64,000 nt of DNA from the human T2T-CHM13v2.0 reference genome, Homo sapiens: assembly GCA_009914755.4 (NCBI GenBank), contig CP086569.2, positions 11,456,001 through 11,520,000 of the forward strand. The letters are read 5' to 3'. Every line of letters starts with the position of its first letter. Within the stretch, counting starts at the first letter, position 1. Position numbers and translations under genes: made by a program. Below are positions 32,216 to 64,000 of this stretch, one piece after another. The notes beneath the pieces were generated by a model. That model was given only the letters and a program-made list of their open reading frames with translations. It was not told the DNA's origin and made no database searches.

Positions 32216-34628
32216 TGAAATTGTAGGAAAGTAAAATTTCTTATCTTATAGCTATAGCATGTTAACATGTTGGTACCTATCCTCCTGAGATGTGAAATTT
32301 TACATGGATAGATGTGTACATTTACAGTTGTACACAAAGAGAAACATATTCTGTAGGCTCTTTGTTTTTCCACAGTTTCATTCAACACTATCTGGTTTAT
32401 ATGGATGACTACATATATAATGCTAGGATGAAGTTTCTTCTCTATAACTGTGAAACTTCCTTGATTATCAACCCTTGGTATATTCTTAGAATAGGATTTT
32501 ATTTTAGAATTAAGATCCTTGTTTCAGGACTCTAGACTGTTAACACACAGAGCCAATAATTATTCAGAATGGTTGGGTTAGTTCACATTCCCACAGATGA
32601 GACATCAAATGTCCAGGCTGCACAGCCTCATTAACACTAGATTTTCTGGACATTTTATATAGTATTTCATCTTATATAAAAAGTAGAATTCTAATTTAAT
32701 TATGGTTGTTAATTTATTTTTATCTTTTTAGTCATTATGAAAATGTTTAACTATATGAAAAGCTAGGAAAGAGTATTATTTTTTAAGGTAGTACTTCAGA
32801 AATATGTGTGATACTTAATTTTTAAAAATTAACTCTAAAAGAAACTTGAAATGTCTGTTCAATGAAATAGGTTATAAATACTGGTCACATTAGTGAAAAA
32901 TATTTGTTTAAAATTAAAATATCTGCAGCAATCCTGTAGATATTAATAATTTTTAAAGAATGACATCTTCAAAATATAAATGTTCTAAACTTATAATCAG
33001 TTAAATATGTCTCTATTAATACATATAGATACATATATCTAAATAAATTTGAAGACTTCAAATTCCAGGTACAATATAATTTTTTTCTATCCTGTGATTT
33101 GTCATTCAGTATTTTGTAATTTGAACAGAAATATTTTGCCCTAACCACATGTCTGTCTTTTCTCTTACCTAGAAATGTTCTTTTATGCAAAATTGTTTTA
33201 AAGGTCAGTTTGCATGTTTGAAAGCATCTTGTAGAATGTTACACAATATATTGCATATTTGGTTACATTGTTTTAACTGTGTAAATAGGGTTTAAATCTA
33301 TGATGCACTTTAGTGCTGATCATGATGCAAAGCAAATTTATCTGTATAAAATCTTCTGTTAATTTTTTTTATTATTATATTTTAAGTTTTAGGGTACATG
33401 TGCACAACGTGCAGGTTTGTTAGATATGTATACATGGGCCATGTTGGTGTGCTGCACCCATTAACTCGTCATTTAGCATTAGGTATATCTCCTAATGCTA
33501 TCCTTCCCCCCTTCCCCCACTGCACAACTGTCCCCAGTGTGTGATGTTCCCCTTCCTGTATCCATGTTTTCTCATTGTTCAATTCCCACCTATGAGTGAG
33601 AACATGTGGTGTTTGGTTTTTTCCTTGCAATAGTTTGCTGAGAATGATGGTTTCTAGCTTCATCCATGTCCCTACAAAGGACATGAACTCAACATTTTTT
33701 ATGGCTGCCCGGTATTCCATGGTGTATATGTGCCACGTTTTCTTAATCCAGTCTATCATTGTTGGACATTTGTGTTGGCTCCAAGTCTTTGCTATTGTGA
33801 CTAGTGCCACAATAAACATACATGTGCTTGTGTCTTTATAGCAGCATGATTTATAATCCTTTGAGTATATACCCAGTAATGTGATGGCTGGGTCAAATGG
33901 TATTTCTAGTTCTAGGTCCCTGAAGAATCATCACACCAAGTTCCACAATGGTTGAACTGGTTTACAGTCCCATCAACAGTGTAAAAGTTTTCCTATTTCT
34001 CCACATCCTCTCCAGCACCTGTTGTTTCCTGACTTTTTAATGATCGCCATTCTAACTGGTGTGAGATGGTATCTCGTTGTGGTTTTGATATGCATTTCTC
34101 TGATGGCCAGTGATGATGAGCATTTTTTCATGTGTCTTTTGGCTGCAAAATGTCTTCTTTTGAGAAGTGTCTGTTCATTTCCTTTGCCCACATTTTGATG
34201 GGGTTGTTTGTTTTTTTCTTGTGAATTCATTTGAGTTCATTGTAGATTCTGGATATTAGCCCTTTTTCAGATGAGGAGGTCGCAAAACTTTTATCCCATA
34301 CTGTAGGATGCCTGTTCACTCTGATAGTGGTTTCTTTTGCTGTGCAGAAGCTGCTTAGTTTAATTAGATCCCATTTGTCAATTTTGTCTTTTGTTGCCAT
34401 TGCTTTTGGTGTTTTAGACATGAAGTCTCTGCCCATGTTTATGTCCTGAATGGTATTGCCTGGTTTTTCTTCTAGGGTTTTTATGGTTTCAGGTCTAACA
34501 TGTAAGTCTTTAATCCATCGTGAATTAATTTCTGTATAAGGTGTAAGGAAGGGATCTAGTTTCAGCTTTCTATATATGGCTAGCCAGTTTTCCCAGCACC
34601 ATTTATTAAATAGGGTATCCTTTCCCTA

Positions 34629-34733
<105 letters not shown>

Positions 34734-35258
34734 CTAGCACTATGCTGTTTTGGTTACTGTAGCCTTGTAGTATAGCTTGAAGTCAGGTAGCATGATGCCT
34801 CCAGCTTTGTTCTTTTGGCTTAGGATTGACTTGGGAATGTGGGCTCTTTTTTGGTTCCGTATGAACTTTAAAGTAGTTTTTTCCAATTCTGTGAAGAAAG
34901 TCATTGGTAGCTTGATGGAGATGGAATTTAATCTATAAATTACCTTGGAGAGTATGGCGATTTTCACGATATTGATTCTTCCTACCCATGAGCATGGCAT
35001 GTTCTTCCATTTGTTTGTATCCTTTTTTATTTCATTGAGCAGTAGTTTGTAGTTCTCCTTGAAGAGGTCCTTCACTTCCCTTGTAAGTAGTATTCCTAGG
35101 TATTTTATTTTCTTTGAAGCAATTGTGAATGGGAGTTCACTCATGATTTGGCTCTCTGTTTGTGTGTTATTGGTGTATAAGAATGCTTGTGATTTTTGCA
35201 CATTGATTTTGTATCCTGAGACTTTGCTGAAGTTGCTTATTAGCTTAAGGAGATTTTA

Positions 35259-35672
<414 letters not shown>

Positions 35673-35675
35673 TCA

Positions 35676-35768
<93 letters not shown>

Positions 35769-36518
35769 TTATTGAGTATTTTTGCATCAATGTTCATCAA
35801 GGATATTGGTCTAAAATTCTCTTTTTTTTTGTTTTGTCTCTGCCAGGCTTTGGTATCAGGATGATGCTGGCCTCATGAAATGAGTTAGGGAGGATTCCCT
35901 CTTTTTCTATTGATTGGAATAATTTCAGAAGGAATGGTACCAGTTCCTCCTTGTACCACTGGTAGAATTCGGCTGTGAATCTATCTGGTCCTGGACTTTT
36001 TTTGGTCGGTAAGCTATTAATTATTGCCTCAATTTCAGAGTGTTTTATTTGTCTATTCAGAGGTTCAACTTCTTCCTGGTTTAGTCTTGGGAGAGTATAT
36101 GTGTCAAGAAATTTATCTATTTCTTCTAGATTTTCTAGTTTATTTTTGTAGAGGTGTTGATAGTATTCTCTGATTGTAGTTTGTATTTCTGTGGGATCGG
36201 TGGTGATATCCCCTTTGTCAATTTTTATTGCATCTATTTGATTCTTCTGTCTTTTCTTCTTTATTGGTCTTGCTAGTGGTCTGTCAATTTTGTTGATCTT
36301 TTCAAAAAACAGCTTCTGGATTCATTGATTTTTTGAAGGGTGTTTTGTGTCTCTATTTCCTTCAGTTCTGCTCTGATCTTCGTTACTTCTTGCCTTCTGC
36401 TAGCTTTTGAATGTGTTGGCTCTTGCTTCTCTAGTTCTTTTCATTGTGATGTTAAGATGTCAATTTTGTTTCTTTCCTGCTTTCTCTTGTGGGCATTTAG
36501 TGCTGTAAATTTCCCTCT

Positions 36519-37400
36519 TCACACTGCTTTGAATGTGTCCCAGAGATTTCGGTATGTTGTGTCTTTGTTCTTGTTGGTTTCAAAGAATATCTTTATTTCT
36601 GCCTTCATTTCCTTATGTACCCAGTAGTCATTCAGGAGCAGGTTGTTCAGTTTCCATGTAGTTGAGTGGTTTCGAGTGAGTTTCTTAATCCTGAGTTGTA
36701 GTTTGATTGCACTGTGGTCTGAGAGACAGTTTGTTAAACTTTCTGTTCTTTTACATTTGCTGAGGAGTGCTTTACTTCCAACTATGTGGTCAATTTTGGA
36801 ATAGGTGTGGTGTGGTGCTGAAAAGACTACATATTCCGTTGATTTTGGATAGAGAGTTCTGTAGATGTCTATTAGGTCTGCTTGGCGCAGAGCTGAGTTC
36901 AATTCCTGTATATCCTTGTTGACTTTCTGTCTCGTTGATCTGTCTAATGTTGACAGTGGGGTGTTAAAGTCTCCCATTATTATTTTGTGGGCGTCTAAGT
37001 CACTTTCTAGATCACTAAGGACTTGCTTTATGAATCTGGGTGCTTCTGTATAGTCTGCATATATATTTAGGATAGTTATTTCTTGTTGAATTGATCTCTT
37101 TACCGTTATGTAATGGCCTTCTTTGTCTCTTTTGATCTGTGTTGGTTTAAAGTCTGTTTTATCAGAGACTAGGATTGCAACCCCTGCCTTTTTTTGTTTT
37201 CCATTTGCTTCGTAGATCTTCCTCCATCCCTTTATTTTGAGCCTATGTGTGTCTCTGCAGGTGAGAAGGCTTTCCTGAATGCAGCACACTGATGGTTCTT
37301 GACTCTTTATCCAATTTGCCCGTCTGTGCCTTTTAATTGGAGCATTTAACCCATTTACATTTATGGTTAGTATTTTTATATGTGAATTTGATCCTGTCAT
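36519..37400 (-). pseudogene. ORF2: L1 ORF2 N-terminal part (endonuclease domain and start of RT); a 293-aa open stretch.
   Basis: '[34 protein letters not shown]...' is a hallmark of the L1 endonuclease. The downstream RT is interrupted. Confidence 0.85.
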
Positions 37401-37463
37401 TATGATGTTAGCTGGTTATTTTCCTCGTTAGTTGATGCAGTTTCTTCCTAGCCTTGATGGTCT

Positions 37464-38296
37464 TTACAATTTGGCATGTTTTTGCAGTGGCTGGTACCAG
37501 TTGTTCCTTTCCATGTTTAGTACTTCCTTCAGGAGCTCTTTTAGGGCAGGCCTGGTTGTGACAAAATCTCTCAGCATTTGCTTGTCTGTGGAGTATATTA
37601 TTTCTCCTTCACTTATGAAGCTTAGTTTGGCTGGATATGAAATTCTGGGTTGAAAATTCTTTTCTTTAAGAATGTTGAATATTGGCCCCCACTCTCTTCT
37701 GGCTTGTAGAGTTTCTGAGGAGAGATCAGCATTTAGTCTGATGGGCTTCCCTTTGAGGGTAACCTGACCTTTCTCTCTGGCTGCCTTTAAAATTTTTTCA
37801 TTCATTTCAACTTTGGTGAATCTGACAATTATGTGTCTTGGAGTTGCTCTTCTCGAGGAGTATCTTTGTGGCATTCTCTGTATTTCCTGAATTTGTATGT
37901 TGGCCTGCCTTACTAGATTGGGGAAGTTCTCCTGGATAATATCCTGCAGAGTGTTTTCCAACTTGGTTCCATTCTCCCTGTCACTTTTAGATACACCAAT
38001 TAGACATACATTTGGTCGTTTCACATAGTCCCATATTTCTTGGAGGTTTTGTTCATTTCTTCTATTCCTTTTTCCCTAAACTTCTCTTCATGCTTTATTT
38101 CAATCATTTCGTCTTCCATCGCTGATACTGTTTCTTCTAGTTGATCACGTTGGATACCGAGGCTTATGCATTTGTCATGTAGTACTTGTGCCATGGTTTT
38201 CAGCTCCATCTGGTCCTTTAAGGACTTCTCTGCATTTGTTTTTCTAGTTATCCATTCGTCTAATTTTTTTTTCAAAGTTTTTAACTTCTTTGCCAT
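37464..38296 (-). pseudogene. ORF1: L1 ORF1 split into two ORFs (91 aa and 186 aa) by an in-frame stop or frameshift.
   Basis: 'MAKKLKTLKKKLDEWITRKTNAEKSLKDQMELKTMAQVLHDKCISLGIQRDQLEE' is the ORF1 coiled coil. '...RFTKVEMNEKILKAAREKGQVTLKGKPIRLNADLSSETLQARREWGPIFNILKEKNFQPRISYPAKLSFISEGEI' is the ORF1 RRM and C-terminal domain. Confidence 0.85.
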
Positions 38297-40859
38297 TGGT
38301 TCAAACTTCTTCCTTTAGTTCGGAGTACTTTGATCTTCTGAAGCCTTCCTCTCTCAACTCATCAAAGTCATACTCCGTCCAGCTTTGTTCCATTGCTGGT
38401 GAGGAGCTGCATTCCTTTGCAGGAGGAGAGGCACTCTGATTTTTAGAGTTTCCAGTTTTTCTGCTCTGTTTTTTCCCATCTTTGTGGTTTTATCTTCCTT
38501 TGGTCCTGGATGATGGTGACATACAGATGGGGTTTTGGTGTGGATGTCCTTTCTGTTTGTTAGTTTTCCTTCTAACAGTCAGGACCCTCAGCTGCAGGTC
38601 TGTTGGAGTTTACTGGAGGTCTACTCCAGACACTATTTGCCTGGGTATCAGCAGCGGTGGCTGCAGAACAATGGATATTGGTGAACTGCAAATGCTGCTG
38701 CCTGATCGTTCCTCTGGAAGTTTTGACTCAGAGGGGTACCCGGCCATGTGAGATGTCAGTCTGCCCCTACTGGGGGCTGCCTCCCAGTTAGGCTACTCAG
38801 GGGTCAGGAACCCACTTGAGGAGGCTGTCTGCCCGTTCTCAGATCTCAAGCTGCATGCTGGGAGAAACACTACTCTCTTCAAAGCTGTCAGACAGGGGCA
38901 TGTAAGTCTGCAGAGGTTATTGCTGTATTTTGTTTGTCTGTGCCCTGACCCCAGAGGTGGAGCCTACAGAGGCAGGCTGGCCTCTTTGAGCTGTTGTGGG
39001 CTCCACCCAGTTTGAACTTCCTGGCTGCTTTGTTTACTTACTCAAGCCTGGGCAATGGCAGGCGCCCCTCCCCCAACCCCACTGTAACTTTGCAGTTTGA
39101 TCTCAGACTGCTGTGCTAGCCAACAGCGAGGCTCTGTGGGTGTAGGATCCTCCAAGCCAGGTACTGGATATAATCTCCTGGTGTGCCATTTGATAAGCCT
39201 GTTGGAAAAGTGCCGTATTAGGGTGGGAGCGACCTGATTTTCCAGGTTCCATCTGTTACCCCTTTCTTTGACTAGGAAAGGGAATTCCCTGACCCATTGT
39301 GCTTCCCAGGTGAGGTGACGCCTTGTCCTGCTTTGGCTCATGCATAGTGAGCTGCACCCACTGTCCAGCACTCCCCAGTGAGATGAACCTGGTACCTCAG
39401 TTGGAAATGCAGATATCACCTGTCTTCTGCATCACTCATGGTGGGAGCTGTAGACTGGAGCTGTTCCTATTCGACCATGTTGCCTCCATCCTCTAATTTT
39501 TAACTTTCAAAAGATTAGATACATTTACCCTTTTCTGAATTTTAATTCCTGATACAAAGATTGTGAAATCTCAAGAGGATAATGAATCAGCTTCTGATTA
39601 TATTCTGGAATTACGATTTGATCACCCATCCAAGAATGCGTATTCACTTTCCTTTACATTACACACATGCATAATACCATGCTGAGTGATGCTGGAAAAA
39701 GTGAGTCTTCAGTAATGCCCTCATAAATTACAGTCTCATTACACCGAGGTATTTTCTTTTTAACCCTTTTTTTCTTTTCTGCTGTGAATATGTGCCTTCT
39801 AAGAGGTGAAAAACTGGGAAAAACTGAAAAAGAACCTTCATCTAATTCAATAACTACCTTTTGTATCTTCTAAGAATTTTTATCTCCAGAAAGCTCTAAT
39901 CTTCATTCCTTTAAAGCTTTATTTCTCTCTCCTTTCCAACATCAGACTTTTCTGTTTGTTTTCTACACCTTTTTTAGAGATGCCTACAATAGAAAAAAAC
40001 TATGACATATTCAATACATCAGAAAAGTTTGCATTGCCCTAGAAAAGAATGAATTATCTGTTTATAAAGAAAAAAACAATAAAAATATGAAGCAAGAAAG
40101 CACAGAAGGTAGTAACCACATTTAGATGTTTATCATGGAATCATCTTTATAATCCATCTGTTACAATTCCACAGAGCAAATTACAAGTAATTGTGAAGTT
40201 TCCCCTCATTTTATAGGTTTGGTCTTATAAGGCATACAACACAAATTTTAATACTTTTCTTTTTGGTATTTGGATCTTAATTTGGTCAAGTGGCCGCTGG
40301 GTAGATGATGGAGCCTCTTGAGACATACAGTCTTCTTCTAGCTTTGTTGATGTGAATATTACTGTGTAGTTTTCATTCACTTATTATTTTACAAGGCATG
40401 CTTCATTAAAAATATGTCAGCATCTCATTGACAAATCACAAAATTTAAAAGGCACAAGAAAAAAGCAATTTATTTGAAACATTCCTGTGTGAAAGTAGTC
40501 ACCACTCTTACTATTCTTCAAATATTTTTATTATATTTAAACACAAGCCTAGTTTTACCTCGAGTGTCTGACCTTGATGATATTGTACACTTTAAACTTG
40601 GAAAAAATTGAACTCTATTGGAAATTTCCTACAGATCAGCTTTTCTAGATGCCAAGCGCCTTGTTTCAGCTGCGGTGATGACAGCAAATTGGGTTCTCAG
40701 GAATTCTGGCCACTGGCATCATCTCAGTTGTTTATAATTGAAGTTGGCTCTGACGAGAACTCAGCTTAGATGCATGGTTGGACTGCTGGGCTTAAGGCTA
40801 GCCTTCCAGGAGGTTGCATTGAGGTGTAACTAGGCAAAGAAAGAAGGAGTTTATTGAGG

Positions 40860-43203: not shown

Positions 43204-43277
43204 ATTTCTTTTTCTGTGTAATAGTTTATCAGCATGAAAATTTTCTTTTTCTGTGTAATAGTTTATCAGCATGAAAA
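43204..43277 (+). repeat. Perfect tandem duplication of a ~36-bp unit, 'tttctttttctgtgtaatagtttatcagcatgaaaa' x2.
   Basis: Read directly at 43204-43240 and 43241-43277. Confidence 0.9.
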
Positions 43278-55639: not shown

Positions 55640-55860
55640 AAAACAGTGGTTACCAGGGGCTGGGGGTGAGAAGAGAAAATGGAGATAGAGAATTCGAAGG
55701 ATGCAAAGTTGCAGATATGTAGAATTAATAAATTGAGGTATCTAATGTACAACATGAGGACTGTAAGTATTAATATTTATTGTATATGGCATTTAACTGA
55801 AAGGGTAGTTTGTAGGTACTCTTTCCTCACACACATATCCAAAAGAAAGGTAACTGAGAT
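55640..55860 (+). mobile_element. Old L1 3'-UTR fragment.
   Basis: 'aacagtggttaccaggggctgggggtgagaagagaaaatggagatagagaattcgaaggatgcaaagttgcagatatgtagaattaataaattgaggtatctaatgtacaacatgaggactgtaag' is typical of the older L1 3' UTR. Confidence 0.65.
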
Positions 55861-55861
55861 T

Positions 55862-56203
55862 TTCAAAGGGAATGCTTCCAGGTTTTGCCCATTCAGTATG
55901 ATATTGGCTGTGGGTTTGTCATAAATAGCTCTTAATATTTCGAGATACATCCCATCAATATCTAATTAATTGAGAGTTTTTAGCATGAAGGTTGTTGAAT
56001 TTTGTCAAAGGGCTTTGCTGCATCTATTGAGATAATCGTGGTTTTTGACGTTGGTTCTGTTTATATGATGGATTACATTTATTGATTTGCATATGTTGTA
56101 CCAGCCTTGCATCCCAGGGATGCAGCCCATTTGATCATGGTGGATAAGCTTTTTGATTTGCTGCTGGATTTGGTTTGCTAGTATTTTATTGGGGATTTTT
56201 GCA
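55862..56203 (-). mobile_element. L1PA ORF2 internal fragment (inverted), truncated exactly at the satellite boundary.
   Basis: Near-identical to 35440-35790 of the full-length L1 in this window: 'tcaaagggaatgcttccaggttttgcccattcagtatgatattggctgtgggtttgtcataaatagctcttaatatttcgagatacatcccatcaata...tgatcatggtggataagctttttgatttgctgctggatttggtttgctagtattttattggggatttttgca'. Confidence 0.9.
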
Positions 56204-56394
56204 CTCCACTCCACTCCATTCCATTCCATTCCATTCCATTCCATTCCATTCCATTCCATTCCATTCCATTCCATTCCATCTCATTTCATTCCACTCCCTT
56301 CCACTCTACTCCACTCCATTCCACTTTACTCCAGTCCACTACACTCCATTCCATTCCATTCCATTCCATTTCATTCCAATCCATTCTATTCCAT

Positions 56395-59300
56395 TCTTTT
56401 ATTTCGTCAGGAACTCACTCTGTCACCAGGCTGTAGTGAAGTGGCACAATCTCAGCCCACATTTCATGTCACCGTGCCATTCCATTCCATTCCATTCCAT
56501 TCCATTCCATTCCATTCCATTCCATTCCATTCCACTCCACACCACTCCATTCCACTCTACTCCACTCTACTGCATTCCTTTCCATTACATCCGATTCCAA
56601 TCCTCTTTATTCCACTCTACTCCACTACACTCAACTCCACTCCACCCCACTCAATTCCATTCCACTCTAATCCATTCCATTCCTTTCTTTCGATAGAATC
56701 TCACCTGTAACCCAGGATGGAGTGCAGTGGCACAATCTCAGCTCACATTTCATTTCACCATTCTATTACTTTCTATTCCATTCCATTCCATTCCATTCCA
56801 TTCCATTCCATTCCATTCTACTCCATTCCTCTCCACTCCACTGCACTCCATTCCATTCGATTCCAATCCACTCAACTCCACTCCGCTACATTCCATCCCA
56901 TCCCATTCCATTCCACTCAATTTCACTCCACTCCATTCCATTCCACTCCATCCCATCCCATTCCACTACATTGCATTCCACTCCACTCCACTCCACTCCA
57001 CTCCACTCCACTGAATTCTACTCCATTCCATTCCATATCATTCCATTCTATTCCTTTCTGTCGACAGGATCTCACTCTGTCACCCAGGATGGAGTGCAGT
57101 GTCATAATCTCAGCTATCATTTCATTTCACGATTACATTCCATTCCATGGCATTCCATTCCATTCCATCTTTTCCGATTACACTACATTCCACTCCATTC
57201 CTCTCCTCTCCGTTCCATTCCATTCCATTGCATTCCATTGTATTCCATTCCATTGCAATGCATTCAATTCCATTCCATCCCATTCCGTTCCACTCCTGCG
57301 AGCTCCACTCCACTCCACTCCACTGCATTCCATTCCATTCCATTCCATACCATAACATTCCATTCAACTCCACTCCACACCACTCCCCTGCATTCCATTC
57401 CCTTCCATTCCATTCCATTTCACTCCATTGCATTCCATTCCTTTCTTTTGACAGGATATCACTGTGTCACCGAGGCTGGAGTACAGTGGCACAATCTCAG
57501 CTCACATTACATGTCAACTTTCCATTGCATTGCATACTATTCCATTGCATTCCGTTCAATTCCATTCCATTTAATTCAATTCCATTCCATCCCACTCCGT
57601 TCTACTCCACTCCACTGCATTCCACTACATTCGATTCCATTCCACTCCATTCCACTCCTATTCACTCTACTGCGCTCCACTCCATTCCACTCCATCCACT
57701 CCATCCCATTCCATTCCGCTCAATTCCACTGCTCTCCACTCCACCCCACTCCACTCCACTTCATTCCATTCCATTCCATCCCATTCCGTTCCGCTCCTTT
57801 CTATTTCAATCCACTTCATTCCAGTCCACACCAATCCAGTCGACTCCATTCCATTCCATTCCATTGCATTCCATTCTACTCCACTCCACTCCACCGAATT
57901 CCACTCCACTCCACTCTACTCCATTCCACTCCACTCCATTCCACTCCACTGCATTCCATTCCACTCCACTCCACTCCATTCCAGTCCATTCCACTCCACT
58001 AAACTCCACTCCCCCCTATCCCATTCCACTCCTTTCTTTCTACAGTATCTCTCTCTGTCACGCAGGCTGTAGTGCAGTGGCACAATCTCAGCACCCATTC
58101 CGTTCCGTTCCGTTCCATTCCGTTCCATTCCAGTTCGTTCCACTTCACTCCACTCCAGTGTACTACATTCTATTACATCTGATTCCATTCCACTACATTG
58201 CACTTTTCTCCACTTCACTGAAATCCACTCCACTCTATTCCATTCCATTCCTTTCCACTCCTCTCCACTTTGCTCCACTCCACTTAATTGCATTCCATTC
58301 CATTCCATTCCATTCCATTCCATTCCATTCCATTCCATTCCATTCCATTCCTCTCCACTCCACTCCACTCCATTCCATTCCACTCCATTCCACTCCACTC
58401 CACTCCACTCCTCTCCACCCCATTCCACTCTACTCCACACCACTCCACTCCGTTCCACTCCACTCCACTGCATTCCATTCCATTCCACTCCATTCCATTC
58501 CACTACAGTCCATTCCAGTCCACTTCATTCCATTCCACTCCACTCCAGTCCACTCCACTCCATTCCACTCCACTCCACTCTGCTCCAACCCATTGCACGA
58601 CTATCTTTCGACAGGATCTACCTCTGTCACACAGGCTGTAGTGCAGTAGCACAATCTCAGCACCTGTTAAATTCCTTTTCATTCCATTCCACTGCATTCC
58701 ATTCCAATGAGTTCCACTGCACTTCACTCCACTGCACTCCACTCCATTCCACTCCACTCCACTCCATTCCGTTCCACTCTACTCCACTCCACTACATTTC
58801 ATTCCATCACATTCCGTTCCACTCCACTTTACTCTATTCCGTTACATTGAAATCCATTCCATTCCAATATTTTCTTTCGACAGGATCTCACTCGGTCACC
58901 CAGGCTGGAGTGCAGTGCCACAATGTCAGCTCACATTTCATTTCCCCATTCCCTTCCCTTCCATTGCATTCCCTTCCTTTCCCTTCCATTCCATTCCATT
59001 CCCTTCCATTCCATTCCACTCCACTCCACTCCATTCTTTTCCATTCCACTACACTCCATTCCATTCCAATATTTTCTTTCAACAGGATCTCACTCTGTCA
59101 CCCAAAATGGAGTGCAATTACAAAATCCCAGCTCACATTTCATGTCACCATTCCATTCCATTCCACTCCCCTAAATTCCATTCCACTCCACTCCACTCAA
59201 CTCCACTCCACGCCACTCCACTCCACTCCACGCCACTCCAGTCATTCCATTCTACTACATTCCATTCCATTCCTTTATTTCAAAATGGATCTCTCTCTGT

Positions 59301-62000
59301 CACCCAGACTGGAGTGCAGTGGCACAATCTTAGCTCACATTTAATTTCTCCATTCCATTCCATTCCATTCCATTCCATTCCATTCCATTCCATTCCATTC
59401 CATTCCATTCAACCCCATTCTATTCCATTCTATTCCATTCCACCCCATTCCATTCCATTCCCTTCTTTCGATGGGATATCACTGTGTCAAAAATGGCTGG
59501 AATACAGGGGCAAAATCTCAGCTCACATTTCATTTCACCATTCCATTTTTTCTTTCCTTTCCATTCCATTCCATCCCACTACACTCAATTCCACTCCACT
59601 CCCCTCCCCTCCCCCATTCCATTCCATTCCATCCCATTCCATTTCACTCCATTTCTCTCCACTCCACTCCCGTCCACTCCACTCCCCTCCACTCCATTCC
59701 TTCCACTCCATCCCATTCCATTCCATTCCATTCTATTCCACTCCACTCCACTCCACTCCACTCCACCCCATCCCATCCCATTCTATTCCATTCCATTCCA
59801 TTCCATTCCATTCCATTCCATTCCATTCCACTCCATTGCATTCCATTCCTCTCTTTCGAGAGGATCTCACTCTGTCACCCAGGCTGGAGTGCAGTGGCAG
59901 TATCTCAGCTCACATTTCAATTCACCATTCCATTCCATTGCATTCCATTCCATTCCATTGCATTCCATTGCATTTAATTCCATTGCATTCCATTCCATTG
60001 CAATGCATTCAATTCTATTCCATCCCATTTCATTCCACTCCTGCGAACTCCACTCAACTCCACTCCACTCCATTCCATTCCATTCTATTCCATTCCATTC
60101 CATTCCATTCCATTCCATTCCATTCCATTCCATTCCTTACCATACCATACCGTTCCATTACACTCCACTCCACTCCACTTCACTCCACTCCATCCCATTC
60201 CATCCCATTCCATTCCACTCCATTCCAATATAATGCACTCCACTCCGCTCCATTCCATTCCATTCCATTCCACACCTGTCCATTCCATTCCTTTCTTTTG
60301 ACAATATTTCACTCTGTCACACTGGCTGGAGTGTAGTGTTACAATCTCAACTCATATTTCATTTCATCATTCCATTCTATTCCGTTACATTCCTTTCCAT
60401 TCTATTCATTTCCATTCCACTATATTCCATTCCACTCCACTCCACTTGGCTCCACTTCATTCAATTTCATTCCGTTCCACTCCACTCTACTCCACTCCTC
60501 TCCACTCCACTACATTCAATTCCATCCAATTCCATACCACTCCACTCCCCTCCATTTCATTCCATTCGATTCCATCCCATTCCATTCCATTCTACTCCAC
60601 TCCCATCCACTCCTATCCACTCCCTTCCATTCCATTCCTCTCCACTCCATTCCATTCCACTTCACTCCTATCCACTCCACTACATTCCAATCCATTCCAC
60701 TCCAATCCATTCCATTCCTTACATTCCACACTATGTCACTCTGTTACCCATTCTGGAATACAGTGGCATAATCTCAGCTTACATTTCATTTCGCTAATCC
60801 ATTCCATTCCATTCCACTCTATTCCACTGCACTCCACTCCACTCCTTTCATTCCATTCCATTCCACTCGACTCCATTCCACTCTCTGCCACTCCATTCCA
60901 CAGCACTCCATTCCATTACAGTCCATCCCATTCCATTCCACTCCACACCACTCCACTCCACACCACTCCACTCCAATCCATTCCATTCCATTTCTTTCTT
61001 TCAACAGCATCTCACTCTGTCACCCAGGCTGGCGTGCAGTGGCACAAATTCAGCTCACATTTCATTTCACCATTCCATTCCATTCTATTCCATTGCATTC
61101 CATTCCTTTGCATTCCATTCCATTGCATTCCATTCCATTCTATTCTGCTCCATTCTATTCCACTCGACTCTATTCCACTCTCCGCCACTCCAGTCCACTC
61201 CACTCCACTCGATGGCATTCCATTCCATCCCATTTAATTCCACTACAATCCACTCTACTCCTCTCCAATCAACTCCACTACACCATAATCCATTCCATTC
61301 CATTCCATCACATTCCATTCCACTCCATTCCACTCTACTTCATTCCACTCCACCACATTCCATTCAACTCCACTCCACTCCAGTCCATTCCACTCCACTC
61401 CACTCCATTCCACTCCGTTTCACTCAACTCCAATCCACTCCACTGCTTCCGATTACAATTCTTTCTTTTGACAGGATCTCCCTCTGTCCCACAGGTTTTT
61501 ATGCAGTGGCACAATCTCATCACCCATTCCAGTCCATTCCATTCCATTCCATTTCATTCACCTCAAATCCACTCCAGTCCACTCCACTCCCTTCCACTCC
61601 ACTGCATGCCACTCCGTTCCATTCCATTCCACTCCACACCACTCCACTGCTCTCCAATCCACTCCAATCCATTCCACTCCAGTCCATTCCAATCCATTCC
61701 ACTCTACGCCATAACATTAAGCTCCACTCCACTCCATTCCATTCCACCACACTCCACCCCATTCCATTCCACTTGATTCCATTCCACTGCACTCCATTCC
61801 ACCCCCATCCACTCCATTCCAGTCCACTCCACTCAACTCCATTCCATTCCACACCAATCCGTTCCACTCCATTTCACTCCACTCCACTCCACTGCAATCC
61901 ACTCCACTCCATCCCAGTCCACTCCTTTCTTTCCAGAGGATCTCCCTCTGTCACACAGTCTGTAGCACAGTGACACGATCTCACCACCGATTCCATTCCA
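56395..62000. repeat. HSat3 sub-block A: diverged CATTC/CACTC pentamers with 16 embedded copies of an Alu-derived ~50-75 bp segment, 'ttctttcgacaggatctcactctgtcacccaggctggagtgcagtggcacaatctcagctcacatttcatttcacc' and variants.
   Basis: Copies begin near 56418, 56700, 57072, 57453, 58055, 58620, 58888, 59090, 59295, 59480, 59868, 60310, 60733, 61008, 61475 and 61945, with irregular spacing of roughly 185-600 bp. Confidence 0.85.
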
Positions 62001-62049
62001 TTCCATTCCATTCCATTCCATTCCATTCCATTCCATTCCATTCCATTCC

Positions 62050-64000
62050 ATTCCATTCAAATACACTCCTTGCCACTACATTCCTTTGCATCCGATTCCA
62101 TTCGAATCCATTCCACTCCACTCCACTCCATTCAATTCCACTCCACTCCACTCCATTTCATTCCACTTGAGTCCATCCACTCCTCTTCACTCTATTCCAC
62201 TCCACGCCACTGCATTCCACTCCACACCACTGCATTCCACTCCACTCCACTCCATTCCATTCCACTCCACTCCATTCCATTCCATTCCAGTCCAGACCAT
62301 TCCACTCCATTCCACTAAATTCCACCCCACTTTATGCCATTCCATTCCACTGCAATCCATTGCACTCCTCTCCACTACTCTCCACTCCTCTGCACTCCAT
62401 TCCACTCCATTCCACTCCACTTCTTTCAACTCCACTCATCTCCATTCCAATTCATTCCATTCCATTCCACTGCACTACATTCCACTGAATTCCACTCCAC
62501 TCCACTCCTCCTTTTCATTCCATTCCATTCCATTGCATTCCATTCCATTCCATTCCATTCCATTCCATTCCATTCCATTCCATTCCATTCCGCTCAGGTT
62601 GATTCAATTGCATTCTATTGCATTCTATTCTATTGCATTCAATTCCATTCCATTGCATTGCATTCCCCTCCCATTCATTCAATTAGAGTCTATTCCATTC
62701 CATTCCTTTCCATTCCATTCCATTCCAATGTGGTTGATTCAATTCCACTCTCTTCCATTCCATTCCATTTCATTCCATTCCATTCCATTCCATTCCATTC
62801 CATTCCATTCCATTCCATTCCATTCCATTCCACTCGGGTTCACTCAATTCCATTCTATTCCAATCCATTCCATTCCATTCCATTCCATTCCATTCCATTC
62901 CATTCCATTCCATTCCATTCCATTCAGTTTGATTCCATTTCATTCCATTCCTTTCCTTTCCATTGCATTCCATTCCATTCCATTCCATTCCATTCCATTC
63001 CATTCCATTCCATTCCATTCCATTCCATTCCATTCCACTCGGGTTGATTCCATTCCTTTCCTATCCATTCTATTTCATGCCATTCCACTCGGGTTGATTC
63101 AATTCCATTGTATTCCATTCCATTCCATTCCATTCCATTCCATTCCATTCCATTCCATTCCATTCCATTCCACTCGGTTTCATTCAATTCCTTTCCATTT
63201 GTTCCATTCAATTCTGTTCAATTCAATTCCATTCCATTCCTTTCCACTCGGAGTGATTCAATTCCATTCTATTCCTTTTAATTCCATTCCATTCCATTCC
63301 ATTCCATTCCATTCCATTCCATTCCATTCCATTCCATTCCATTCCATTCTATTCCATTCCATTCCATTCCATTCCTTTCCACTCTGGTTTATTCAATTCC
63401 ATTCTATGAAATTCCATTCCATTCCATTCCATTATATTCCATTTCCTTCCATTCCAATCCATACCACTATTGTTGATTCAATTCCATTCTATTCCATTCC
63501 ATTCCACTCCATTCCATTCCATTCCATTCCATTCCATTCCATTCCATTCCATTCCATTCCATTCCAATCCATTCCATTCCATTCCACTCCACTTGTTGAT
63601 TCAATTCCATTCTTTTCCATTCCATTGAATTCCATTAAATTGCATTCCACTCCATTGCATTCCATTCCACTCCACTCGGGTAGATTCAATTCCATTGCAT
63701 TCCATTGCATTGCATTCCATTCCTTTCCATTCCATTCCATTCCATTCTATTCCATTCCATTCTACTCTTTTTCCTTTCCATTCCTTTCCATAGCATTCCA
63801 TTCCATTCCATTCTATTCCATTCCATTCTATTCCACTTGTGTTGATTCAAATCCATTCCATTCCATGGCAATCCATTCCATTCCATTCCTTTCCTTTCCA
63901 TTCCATTCCATTCCATTCCATTCCATTCCATTCCATTCCATTCCATTCCATTCCGCTCGAGGTGATTCAATTAAATTCTTTTCCATTCTATTCTATTCCG
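62050..64000. repeat. HSat3 sub-block B: purer (CATTC)n runs of 50-90 bp alternating with a 'cc(a/g)ctcgggttgattcaattcc' element (the classical Sat III CAACCCGAGT motif on the other strand). There are no Alu-derived inserts.
   Basis: Motif copies near 62590, 62740, 62830, 62925, 63040, 63090, 63173, 63245, 63380, 63465, 63590, 63675, 63835 and 63955. Confidence 0.85.

What the first reader, a model, noticed from the sequence alone, without database searches (positions are those of the whole stretch)
62050..64000. Switch of satellite subfamily within the same array: a CAACCCGAGT-type Sat III directly abuts the Alu-containing block.
Beyond ~62000 the Alu-derived element disappears. The array becomes clean (CATTC)10-18 runs separated by 'ccactcgggttgattcaattcc' elements roughly every 50-160 bp, and 61985-62045 is a perfect (CATTC)12. 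Two HSat3 subfamilies with different monomer architecture are therefore juxtaposed in under 100 bp. Such junctions are where array-homogenisation domains meet.
Basis: partly seen in the sequence, partly recalled or inferred. Interest (0 to 1): 0.5.

Follow-up and report, generated by a model that had tools for sequence, protein, structure and literature searches.

The report
Junction of two HSat3 satellite subtypes
Two different, old versions of the primate (CATTC)n "satellite III" repeat lie end to end here, one carrying Alu fragments and one carrying the classical CAACCCGAGT spacer; the switch is real but sits about 460 bp further along than reported, and this kind of mosaic is already well documented.

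Summary
The window ends in a (CATTC)n-type satellite (56,203 to 64,000) that starts abruptly inside an antisense L1 fragment.

- **Block A (56,203 to ~62,508):** 16 copies of one truncated Alu 3' end. Each is followed by a CATTC run and then a CACTC-rich body (40% of pentamers).
- **Block B (~62,516 to 64,000):** 7% CACTC, 41% perfect (CATTC)n, and 14 spacers of the form CCACTCGGGTTGATTCAATTCC(ATTCTATTCC), 50-161 bp apart. Block A has none.

The switch is real (change-point LLR 40.7; highest of 500 permutations 10.3). It lies at 62,503-62,516, not 62,050. The perfect run at 61,990-62,058 and the CACTC-rich stretch 62,060-62,508 are the last block-A unit.

Both types are multi-copy families:
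- The exact Alu/satellite joint occurs in at least 120 metagenome contigs. None is this locus.
- The core of block A is 93-95% identical to contigs that imply a nested repeat of about 4 kb.
- The only diagnostic published 24-mer recurring in those contigs is that of HSat3A4.
- Block B is closest to HSat3B2/B1.

Alu-associated HSat3 and adjacent HSat3 subfamilies are already described in T2T work. The window's Alu fragments resemble copies elsewhere more than each other, so this is a fossil join and not an active homogenisation front. Ordinary; low interest.

The parts
55860..56202 (-). Left flank of the satellite: an antisense L1 ORF2 (reverse-transcriptase region) fragment, cut off at the start of the array.
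   Evidence: It is 89% identical over 346 bp to + strand 35,441-35,785 of the minus-strand L1 at about 33-39 kb. That L1's ORF1 and endonuclease domains were found with Pfam. Assigning the flank to the RT region rests on my recollection of the L1 sequence.
56203..62508 (+). Block A: Alu-bearing, CACTC-rich HSat3-type satellite made of 16 variable units of 200-590 bp.
   Evidence: TRF reports period 5. CACTC makes up 40% of CATTC+CACTC pentamers and 12.8% of bases lie in perfect (CATTC)n runs of 3 or more copies. Alu fragments lie at 56408-56472, 56683-56758, 57054-57130, 57441-57508, 58032-58092, 58604-58661, 58871-58944, 59073-59148, 59287-59348, 59495-59538, 59852-59925, 60291-60366, 60736-60792, 60991-61070, 61459-61519 and 61937-61983.
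57404..61331 (+). Core of block A with close paralogues elsewhere; it corresponds to one unit of a nested tandem repeat of about 3.9-4.3 kb in those paralogues.
   Evidence: Unique 22-mer anchors are colinear with L063, L091, L074, L102, L037, L005 and L032. In L063 and L091 the order jumps from the equivalent of window 61,331 back to 57,404. Substitution identity is 93-95%. L063 shows a self-offset of about 4,280 bp.
61937..61983 (-). Last Alu 3'-end fragment, antisense on the + strand.
   Evidence: Matches the probe at 83%. There is no later match.
61990..62058 (+). Perfect (ATTCC) run of 13.8 copies. It is the CATTC run that normally follows an Alu fragment in block-A units, not the start of block B.
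   Evidence: Read directly from the sequence. Block A has five perfect runs of 11 or more copies, three of them right after an Alu fragment.
62059..62508 (+). CACTC-rich body of the last block-A unit.
   Evidence: 4-9 CACTC per 100 bp, as in the rest of block A. It contains no block-B spacer. Sharing of 16-mers with the block-B library is only 0.04-0.11.
62503..62590 (+). Transition zone. The compositional change-point is at 62,503-62,516, followed by a (CATTC)n run up to the first spacer.
   Evidence: Change-point LLR 40.7 against a highest value of 10.3 in 500 permutations. The pentamer run is common to both types, so the breakpoint cannot be placed more finely.
62516..64000 (+). Block B: classical Sat III-type array of (CATTC)11-14 runs plus 14 spacers with consensus CCACTCGGGTTGATTCAATTCCATTCTATTCC. 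It is cut off by the end of the window.
   Evidence: Spacers start at 62590, 62725, 62830, 62920, 63035, 63085, 63170, 63244, 63379, 63464, 63587, 63672, 63833 and 63953. CACTC is 7% of pentamers. 41.1% of bases lie in perfect runs.
63037..63046 (-). Exact CAACCCGAGT 10-mer (ACTCGGGTTG on the + strand), copy 1.
63087..63096 (-). Exact CAACCCGAGT 10-mer, copy 2.

Best explanation
The region is a fossil boundary, at about 62,505-62,516, between two independently amplified and now decayed sub-arrays of the primate (CATTC)n satellite family HSat3 (satellite III).

**Block A.** This is a composite type. One Alu inserted into a CATTC/CACTC array, was truncated to its last ~65 bp plus tail, and was then amplified together with the flanking pentamers. 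The type is a large multi-locus family, most like the Alu-associated HSat3 of the acrocentric short arms and the Y chromosome (HSat3A4-like).

**Block B.** This is the classical Sat III architecture: pure pentamer runs punctuated by the CAACCCGAGT-containing spacer. It belongs to the HSat3B clade and is closest to B2/B1.

**How they came together.** The two were brought side by side by array-scale processes such as unequal exchange or segmental duplication of satellite blocks. They have since diverged without local homogenisation. The join has no sequence-encoded function of its own.

**Shown versus inferred.** Shown: the two architectures, the position and sharpness of the switch, the single origin of the Alu fragment, the multi-copy status of both types, and the absence of local homogenisation. 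Inferred: the subfamily names and the mechanism that juxtaposed the blocks.
For: **The switch**
- Change-point at 62,503-62,516, LLR 40.7 against a highest value of 10.3 in 500 permutations.
- Spacer core: 13 hits, all in 62,591-63,968, and none in block A.
- Alu fragment: 16 copies, all at or before 61,983.

**The Alu fragment and its single origin**
- The fragments align to positions 224-288 of a recalled Alu consensus, in antisense. Full-length Alus in the same window match the same probe.
- The same truncation joint (GCTCAC|ATTTCATTTCAC) is seen in the window copies and in 549 fragments from 120 contigs.

**Block A belongs to a multi-locus family**
- At least 120 contigs carry the exact 25-mer joint, forming 53 or more 31-mer clusters. 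None shares the window's left flank.
- All are CACTC-rich and almost devoid of the block-B element.
- The core 57.4-61.3 kb is 93-95% identical to several contigs, which are 97.7% identical to each other and imply a tandem unit of about 4 kb.
- The HSat3A4 top 24-mer is the only subfamily marker recurring in them: 11 hits in 10 contigs.
- Four of them abut a 68-bp-period repeat that looks like beta satellite.

**Block B belongs to a separate family**
- Two unrelated contigs (L121, L122) have the same spacer-plus-run architecture.
- They share 22.5% of block B's 16-mers against 4.2% of block A's.
- The HSat3B2 top 24-mer matches block B with 1 mismatch, and B1 with 2 mismatches. Neither comes within 3 mismatches anywhere in block A.

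**Such joins recur**
- L033 reads block-B type, then Alu-bearing type, then the 68-bp repeat.
- L049, L104 and L120 share another junction, 87-96% identical among themselves, between an HSat3A1-like block and the Alu-bearing type.

**Literature**
- HSat3 often includes ancient TE fragments, and 14 HSat2,3 subfamilies occur in adjacent arrays (10.1101/2021.07.12.452052; PMC4022460).
- Sat III is made of GGAAT and GGAGT repeats in differing proportions (PMC7767330).
- ACTCC repeats concentrate on acrocentric pericentromeres (PMC11305138).
Against: - No published subfamily-specific 24-mer matches the window exactly, so the A4 and B2/B1 labels are nearest-neighbour guesses from 14 marker k-mers only.
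- The head (56.2-57.4 kb) and tail (61.4-62.5 kb) of block A have no close paralogue among the contigs. Pentamer background makes ordinary alignments uninformative: the control alignment of block B against the core scores as high as the tail against the core.
- Only 1.5 kb of block B is visible.
- The species and chromosome of the window were not determined. The contigs' human origin is presumed, not shown.
- An assembly mis-join cannot be excluded from the sequence alone.
Confidence: 0.8

Rival explanations
1. One reading: the subfamily switch lies at about 62,050, immediately after the last Alu fragment, and the perfect (CATTC) run is the first part of the new subtype.
For: - The last Alu fragment ends at 61,983 and a perfect run follows at 61,990-62,058.
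- Splitting the array at 62,050 still gives a positive LLR of 19.1.
Against: - 62,060-62,508 is CACTC-rich like block A and has no spacer.
- The best change-point is 62,503-62,516, with LLR 40.7.
- Perfect runs directly after an Alu fragment are a regular feature of block-A units.
- The distance from the last Alu fragment to 62,510 is 573 bp, within the 200-591 bp range of unit lengths.
Confidence: 0.05
2. There is one subfamily only. Block B is a locally re-expanded, slippage-purified stretch of the same array, not a different lineage.
For: - Both blocks derive from the same pentamer, lie on the same strand and are contiguous.
- Pure (CATTC)n runs also occur in block A.
- Generic alignments between block B and block A reach about 83%.
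Against: - Block B's 22-32 bp spacer is a specific non-pentamer element. It is absent from block A and nearly absent from 347 kb of block-A paralogues.
- The same spacer is present, with the same architecture, in unrelated contigs L121 and L122.
- It overlaps the marker 24-mers of the published HSat3B clade (PMC4022460 Table 1).
- Slippage cannot create the same spacer 14 times.
Confidence: 0.07
3. Assembly artefact: two satellite-containing reads or contigs were mis-joined within a shared (CATTC)n run.
For: - The join lies in a pentamer run about 75 bp long that is common to both types (62,516-62,590). That is exactly where a mis-assembly could occur.
- Satellites are error-prone to assemble.
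Against: - There is no discontinuity, strand flip or gap at the join.
- Equivalent joins between the Alu-bearing type and other HSat3 types appear in several independent contigs, so such joins are biologically common.
- This cannot be tested without reads.
Confidence: 0.05
4. Functional boundary: the two blocks differ in protein-binding capacity (for example GGAAT-based TEAD or HSF1 platforms), and the junction delimits a chromatin or transcription domain.
For: - Block B has about twice the CATTC density of block A (11% against 5.8% of 5-mers).
- HSat3 is reported as a TEAD/HSF1 binding platform, with some subfamily-specific motif profiles (PMC11526998).
Against: - Nothing in the sequence marks a boundary element.
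- Both blocks are decayed copies of large families.
- No expression or binding data are available here.
Confidence: 0.03

Closest known systems
Alu-associated HSat3 of the acrocentric short arms and the Y chromosome (HSat3A4; clones pTRS-47, pR-1/2/4, pE-2)
   Same: - Pentamer array intermingled with Alu fragments and showing no local homogenisation, as described in 10.1101/2022.12.01.518724.
- CACTC (ACTCC)-rich, like the acrocentric pericentromeres (PMC11305138).
- Paralogous contigs carry the HSat3A4 marker 24-mer, and some abut a 68-bp repeat that looks like beta satellite.
   Different: - The window copy has no exact A4 marker 24-mer; the closest is 2 mismatches.
- It is 5-7% diverged from the nearest paralogues.
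- It is short (6.3 kb) and bounded by an L1 fragment and another HSat3 type.
- The clone sequences themselves could not be compared.
HSat3B2 / HSat3B1 (B clade; pTRS-63 and HUMASAT3 for B2)
   Same: - (CATTC)n runs punctuated by a CACTCGGGTTGATTC-type spacer.
- Block B's extended spacer TTGATTCAATTCCATTCTATTCCA differs by 1 base from the B2 marker TTGTTTCAATTCCATTCTATTCCA.
- The B1 marker TTGCATTCCACTCGGGTTGATTCT is 2 mismatches away.
   Different: - No exact marker match.
- Only 1.5 kb is visible and no higher-order unit can be seen.
- The published B2 units are 1.4-1.5 kb (PMC4022460 Table S1).
Classical satellite III of 9q12 (pHuR98; HSat3B5)
   Same: It shares the CAACCCGAGT 10-mer next to GATT. 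The sat III primer AATCAACCCGAGTGCAATCGAATGGAATCG in PMC2171959 shows this.
   Different: - The 9q12 type has CpG-containing ATTCGATTG pentamer variants next to the spacer. Block B has CATTCCATTCCACTCGGG and only 10 CpG in 1.5 kb.
- The B5 marker 24-mer is 2 or more mismatches away.
HSat1B (DYZ2), an Alu-containing composite satellite
   Same: An Alu-derived piece forms part of a tandemly repeated satellite unit.
   Different: HSat1B is an AT-rich 2.5-kb unit with a large AluY part and is unrelated to (CATTC)n (10.1101/2022.12.01.518724). Here only about 65 bp of the Alu 3' end sits within pentamer repeats.

Membership tests
HSat3 / satellite III (family level) | Array derived from the (CATTC)n / (GGAAT)n pentamer. 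| tested here: met
   TRF reports period 5 over 56,205-63,954. CATTC and its one-step variant CACTC dominate the 5-mer spectrum in both blocks.
HSat3 / satellite III (classical definition) | Pentamer runs interspersed with a specific 10-bp sequence (CAACCCGAGT type) (PMC8125562). | tested here: met
   Met for block B only: 2 exact and 12 degenerate copies at 62,590-63,974. Not met in block A, which has none.
HSat2 | Marker 24-mers of HSat2A1, 2A2 and 2B (ATTCGATTCC / GATGAT-type units). | tested here: not met
   No match with up to 3 mismatches anywhere in the window.
HSat3A4 | [quoted passage not shown] | tested here: inconclusive
   - Only the single most common marker was available.
- The window has no exact hit; the closest is 2 mismatches, in both blocks.
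- Contigs sharing block A's Alu joint carry it exactly 11 times.
- The full list as held is cut to 2A1.
HSat3A4 / Alu-associated HSat3 | Alu fragments intermingled with the pentamer array. | tested here: met
   16 antisense fragments matching positions 224-288 of a recalled Alu consensus. The same truncation joint occurs in 549 fragments elsewhere.
HSat3B2 | Exact matches to B2-specific 24-mers. | tested here: inconclusive
   The top marker matches with 1 mismatch at 63,473. Matches with up to 3 mismatches number 8 in block B and 0 in block A. The full library was unavailable.
HSat3B1 | Exact matches to B1-specific 24-mers. | tested here: inconclusive
   The top marker matches with 2 mismatches at 63,028, in block B only.
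HSat3 subfamily assignment in general | Classification with the complete subfamily-specific 24-mer set or the chm13_hsat tool, and the chromosomal location. | not testable with these tools
   The held copy of Dataset S2 is truncated. No primate genome assembly is searchable here.
Locally homogenised array / higher-order repeat domain | Neighbouring units are more similar to each other than to units elsewhere, or a regular higher-order period is present. | tested here: not met
   - The window's 14 usable Alu fragments are 77.6% identical to each other.
- Their nearest neighbours are in other loci, at 95-99% for 10 of the 14.
- No dominant long offset appears in 14-mer self-comparison.

The most novel reading that the evidence does not exclude
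The 6.3-kb block A may be a datable, one-off transfer. In this reading a piece of an acrocentric/Y-type Alu-bearing HSat3 array with a ~4-kb nested repeat was copied between an L1 fragment and a B-type Sat III array. It split off before the source array was last homogenised: the window is 5-7% from the paralogues, which are 2.3% from each other. Such a relic would give a fixed outgroup for timing the expansion and interchromosomal spread of that HSat3 subfamily.
Probability: 0.25. Interest if true: 0.25.

Novelty: already known. Interest (0 to 1): 0.1.

Why it matters
It matters little beyond correct annotation. The result shows that the window ends in a mosaic of two HSat3 types, gives the true breakpoint (about 62,510), and shows that neither block is locally homogenised.

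- Mosaic HSat3 subfamily organisation, Alu fragments inside HSat3 and the CAACCCGAGT spacer are all described in the satellite and T2T literature.
- If the block could be placed on a chromosome, the diverged block-A copy might serve as an outgroup for dating the Alu-bearing subfamily.
- As a side effect, the work shows how much human HSat3 sits in public metagenome and MAG records.

Tried and rejected
- **Published k-mer library.** The copy of Altemose 2014 Dataset S2 held here is cut after subfamily 2A1. Only the 14 top markers from Table 1 could be used, and none matches the window exactly.
- **14-mer self-comparison of the array.** No clear higher-order period and a noisy sharing matrix.
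- **Testing head and tail as partial repeat copies.** I aligned the head and tail of block A against the core to test whether they are partial copies of the ~4-kb unit. This was rejected as uninformative, because the control (block B against the core) scores as high.
- **The 28-mer just before the junction (62,481-62,508).** It looked like a specific anchor in L063, L091 and L040, but it is generic and sits in unrelated contexts.
- **Finding the same locus elsewhere.** Exact-product look-ups of ORFs spanning the A/B junction and the L1/array junction are not on record. No fetched contig shares the left flank.
- **Rfam scan of the window.** No family reached threshold.
- **Pfam on the left-flank translation.** No hit. 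The L1 identity was shown instead by DNA similarity to the L1 at 35.4 kb.
- **Deliberately not run.** The large protein-database searches would only have returned translated satellite ORFs at high cost.
- **Locus guess.** An interstitial HSat block on chr10 (hg19 18.80-18.93 Mb) with no subfamily assigned, and a 3A4 block on chr1, are listed in PMC4022460 Table S8. I considered both as candidate loci but could not test them.
Full report
**What is in the sequence**

Positions 1-56,202 of the window are ordinary Alu- and L1-rich primate DNA. I found about ten Alus with a recalled Alu consensus. A minus-strand L1 at about 33-39 kb has recognisable ORF1 and endonuclease domains.

At 56,203 the sequence changes abruptly into a period-5 satellite that runs to the end of the window. 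TRF reports 56,205-63,954, consensus TCCAT, 68% matches. GC skew is about -0.7 throughout.

The 343 bp just before the array (55,860-56,202) are 89% identical to + strand 35,441-35,785 of the L1 mentioned above. The array therefore abuts a truncated antisense L1 fragment.

**Block A (56,203 to ~62,508)**

A probe for the Alu-like element finds 16 copies, starting at 56,408, 56,683, 57,054, 57,441, 58,032, 58,604, 58,871, 59,073, 59,287, 59,495, 59,852, 60,291, 60,736, 60,991, 61,459 and 61,937. They are 200-591 bp apart, and there is none after 61,983.

They align in antisense to positions 224-288 of the Alu consensus, that is the last ~65 bp plus a T-rich remnant of the tail. They all share the same truncation joint, GCTCAC|ATTTCATTTCAC.

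Each unit reads: Alu fragment, then a CATTC-rich run, then a body in which CACTC alternates with CATTC. CACTC makes up 40% of the CATTC+CACTC pentamers in this block. Only 12.8% of its bases lie in perfect (CATTC) runs of 3 or more copies.

**Block B (~62,516 to 64,000)**

Here CACTC falls to 7% of pentamers, and 41.1% of bases lie in perfect runs, eight of them 11-14 copies long.

Fourteen spacers with consensus CCACTCGGGTTGATTCAATTCC, usually continuing ATTCTATTCC, start at 62,590, 62,725, 62,830, 62,920, 63,035, 63,085, 63,170, 63,244, 63,379, 63,464, 63,587, 63,672, 63,833 and 63,953. They are 50-161 bp apart.

The 15-nt spacer core with up to 3 mismatches gives 13 + strand hits, all at 62,591-63,968, and none in block A. 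It gives 16 hits in the whole window, against 0.9 expected from shuffles. Only two spacers carry the exact 10-mer (63,037-63,046 and 63,087-63,096).

**Where the switch is**

A likelihood change-point on the ordered series of 786 CATTC/CACTC occurrences puts it between 62,503 and 62,516, with LLR 40.7. The highest value over 500 permutations was 10.3. The LLR for a split at 62,050 is 19.1.

The 100-bp profile shows 62,101-62,500 still holding 4-9 CACTC per bin, as in block A.

The perfect (ATTCC) run of 13.8 copies at 61,990-62,058 is the usual CATTC run after an Alu fragment. Block A has five perfect runs of 11 or more copies, three of them right behind an Alu fragment. The 573 bp from the last Alu fragment to 62,510 is a normal unit length.

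So 61,937-62,508 is the last block-A unit. The change to block B takes place between 62,508 and the first spacer at 62,590, inside a pentamer run common to both types. 'Under 100 bp' is therefore correct at the corrected coordinate.

With 16 fragments in about 5.8 kb, about 5.6 would be expected in the final 2 kb. Their absence has a Poisson probability of about 0.004 (my arithmetic).

**Related sequences elsewhere: block A**

These total 347 kb and are presumably host DNA.

- None is near-identical to the window and none shares its left flank.
- They form 53 or more clusters by 31-mer content.
- All are CACTC-rich and almost free of the block-B element.
- They contain 549 Alu fragments with the same joint. 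This argues for a single Alu capture followed by amplification.

The window's 14 usable fragments are only 77.6% identical to each other, yet 10 of them have a nearest neighbour 95-99% identical in another contig.

Unique 22-mer anchors show that window 57,404-61,331 is colinear with L063, L091, L074, L102, L037, L005 and L032, at 93-95% substitution identity. In L063 and L091 the order jumps from the equivalent of 61,331 back to 57,404, and L063 has a self-offset of about 4,280 bp. That suggests a nested tandem repeat of about 3.9-4.3 kb in the source array. These are short-read contigs, so I treat this with caution. L063 and L091 are 97.7% identical to each other.

The window therefore holds an older, more diverged copy of a unit that is tandemly repeated elsewhere.

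Of the 14 marker 24-mers in Table 1 of Altemose et al. 2014 (PMC4022460), only the HSat3A4 marker recurs in these contigs, with 11 exact hits in 10 contigs. Four contigs abut a repeat with a 68-bp period. That is the unit length of beta satellite, which is enriched on acrocentric short arms (10.1101/2021.07.12.452052).

**Related sequences elsewhere: block B**

An exact 21-mer from the extended spacer found two contigs binned into a Streptococcus parasanguinis MAG (L121, L122). They have the same architecture, with 13-14 spacers per ~1.1 kb and few CACTC.

They share 22.5% of block B's non-periodic 16-mers but only 4.2% of block A's. In 250-bp bins the shared fraction rises from 0.04-0.16 before 62,500 to 0.24-0.54 after it.

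The nearest Table 1 markers are HSat3B2 (1 mismatch at 63,473) and HSat3B1 (2 mismatches at 63,028). Neither comes within 3 mismatches anywhere in block A. All five B-clade markers overlap the spacer region, whereas the A-clade markers do not (reading of PMC4022460 Table 1).

**Such joins recur**

L033 reads B-type spacers, then the Alu-bearing type, then the 68-bp repeat. L049, L104 and L120 share another junction, 87-96% identical among themselves, between an HSat3A1-like block (CATTCGAGTCC motifs) and the Alu-bearing type. The Alu-bearing type is thus a mosaic piece that adjoins different HSat3 types in different places.

**Comparison with what is known**

- Satellite III is defined as well-conserved ATTCC pentamers interspersed with a specific 10-bp sequence (PMC8125562). 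[quoted passage not shown]
- HSat2,3 were divided into 14 subfamilies occupying distinct, often adjacent arrays (PMC4022460; 10.1101/2021.07.12.452052).
- HSat3 'often include[s] fragments of ancient TEs' in its units (10.1101/2021.07.12.452052, citing Bandyopadhyay 2001).
- ACTCC (= CACTC) repeats concentrate on the acrocentric pericentromeres (PMC11305138).

Every element of the finding fits these descriptions.

**Interpretation**

The best reading is a fossil boundary between an Alu-bearing, CACTC-rich, HSat3A4-like block and a classical B-clade (B2/B1-like) block. Array-scale exchange or duplication created it, and it has since decayed.

The rivals are unlikely, for the reasons given with each:
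- a switch at 62,050;
- a single subfamily with a locally purified stretch;
- an assembly mis-join;
- a functional chromatin boundary.

Block A shows no local homogenisation.

**Limits**

- The species and chromosome of the window were not determined. No primate assembly is searchable here, and exact-product look-ups failed.
- The full subfamily k-mer library was not available, so the subfamily names are nearest-neighbour labels.
- Only 1.5 kb of block B is visible.
- The Alu consensus, and the assignment of the left flank to the L1 RT region, come from my own recollection. They are backed by matches to Alus and an L1 inside the window.

**Verdict**

It is an ordinary, already described kind of satellite mosaic. 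Interest is low.

Noticed in passing
window 55,860-56,203: The satellite array begins abruptly inside a truncated antisense L1 ORF2 fragment, which is 89% identical to the other L1 at 35,441-35,785. Whether the L1 resumes beyond the array, which would make the satellite block an insertion, cannot be seen in this window.
   Followed up: partly
window 57,404-61,331; L063, L091: This core of the Alu-bearing block is 93-95% identical to contigs in which the same unit appears circularly permuted. That implies a nested tandem repeat of about 3.9-4.3 kb elsewhere in the genome. The contigs are 97.7% identical to each other, so the window copy is the older, more diverged one.
   Followed up: partly
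L121, L122 (JAGZKI010000091.1 and JAGZKI010000089.1, Streptococcus parasanguinis MAG); L001-L120: Primate HSat3 satellite DNA sits in public microbial records. Two contigs of a Streptococcus MAG are pure Sat III, and at least 120 metagenome contigs carry the Alu/HSat3 joint. This looks like host contamination, as the T2T-Y paper warned.
   Followed up: partly
L033 1,989-2,632; also L066, L069, L080: Four Alu-bearing HSat3 contigs run directly into a tandem repeat with a 68-bp period that looks like beta satellite. This points to an acrocentric-short-arm type of neighbourhood for those paralogues. The window has no such repeat.
   Followed up: partly
L049, L104, L120: Three contigs share, at 87-96% identity, a different junction between an HSat3A1-like block (CATTCGAGTCC motifs) and the Alu-bearing type. 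That junction is itself duplicated at several loci.
   Followed up: partly
window 43,205-43,277: A perfect two-copy tandem duplication of a 37-bp unit (100% match) in otherwise non-repetitive sequence.
   Followed up: no
window ~33,000-39,000 (minus strand): A long L1 element with open ORF1 (186 aa, RBD-like and dsRBD-like domains) and an endonuclease-domain ORF (293 aa). The T-rich + strand shows up as strong negative AT skew.
   Followed up: partly
L123 (Marinomonas sp. PE14-40 chromosome, NZ_CP130700.1) 103-123: A single exact match to the 21-nt block-B probe in a complete bacterial chromosome. About 0.3 chance matches are expected in 596 Gb, so it is probably coincidence.
   Followed up: no
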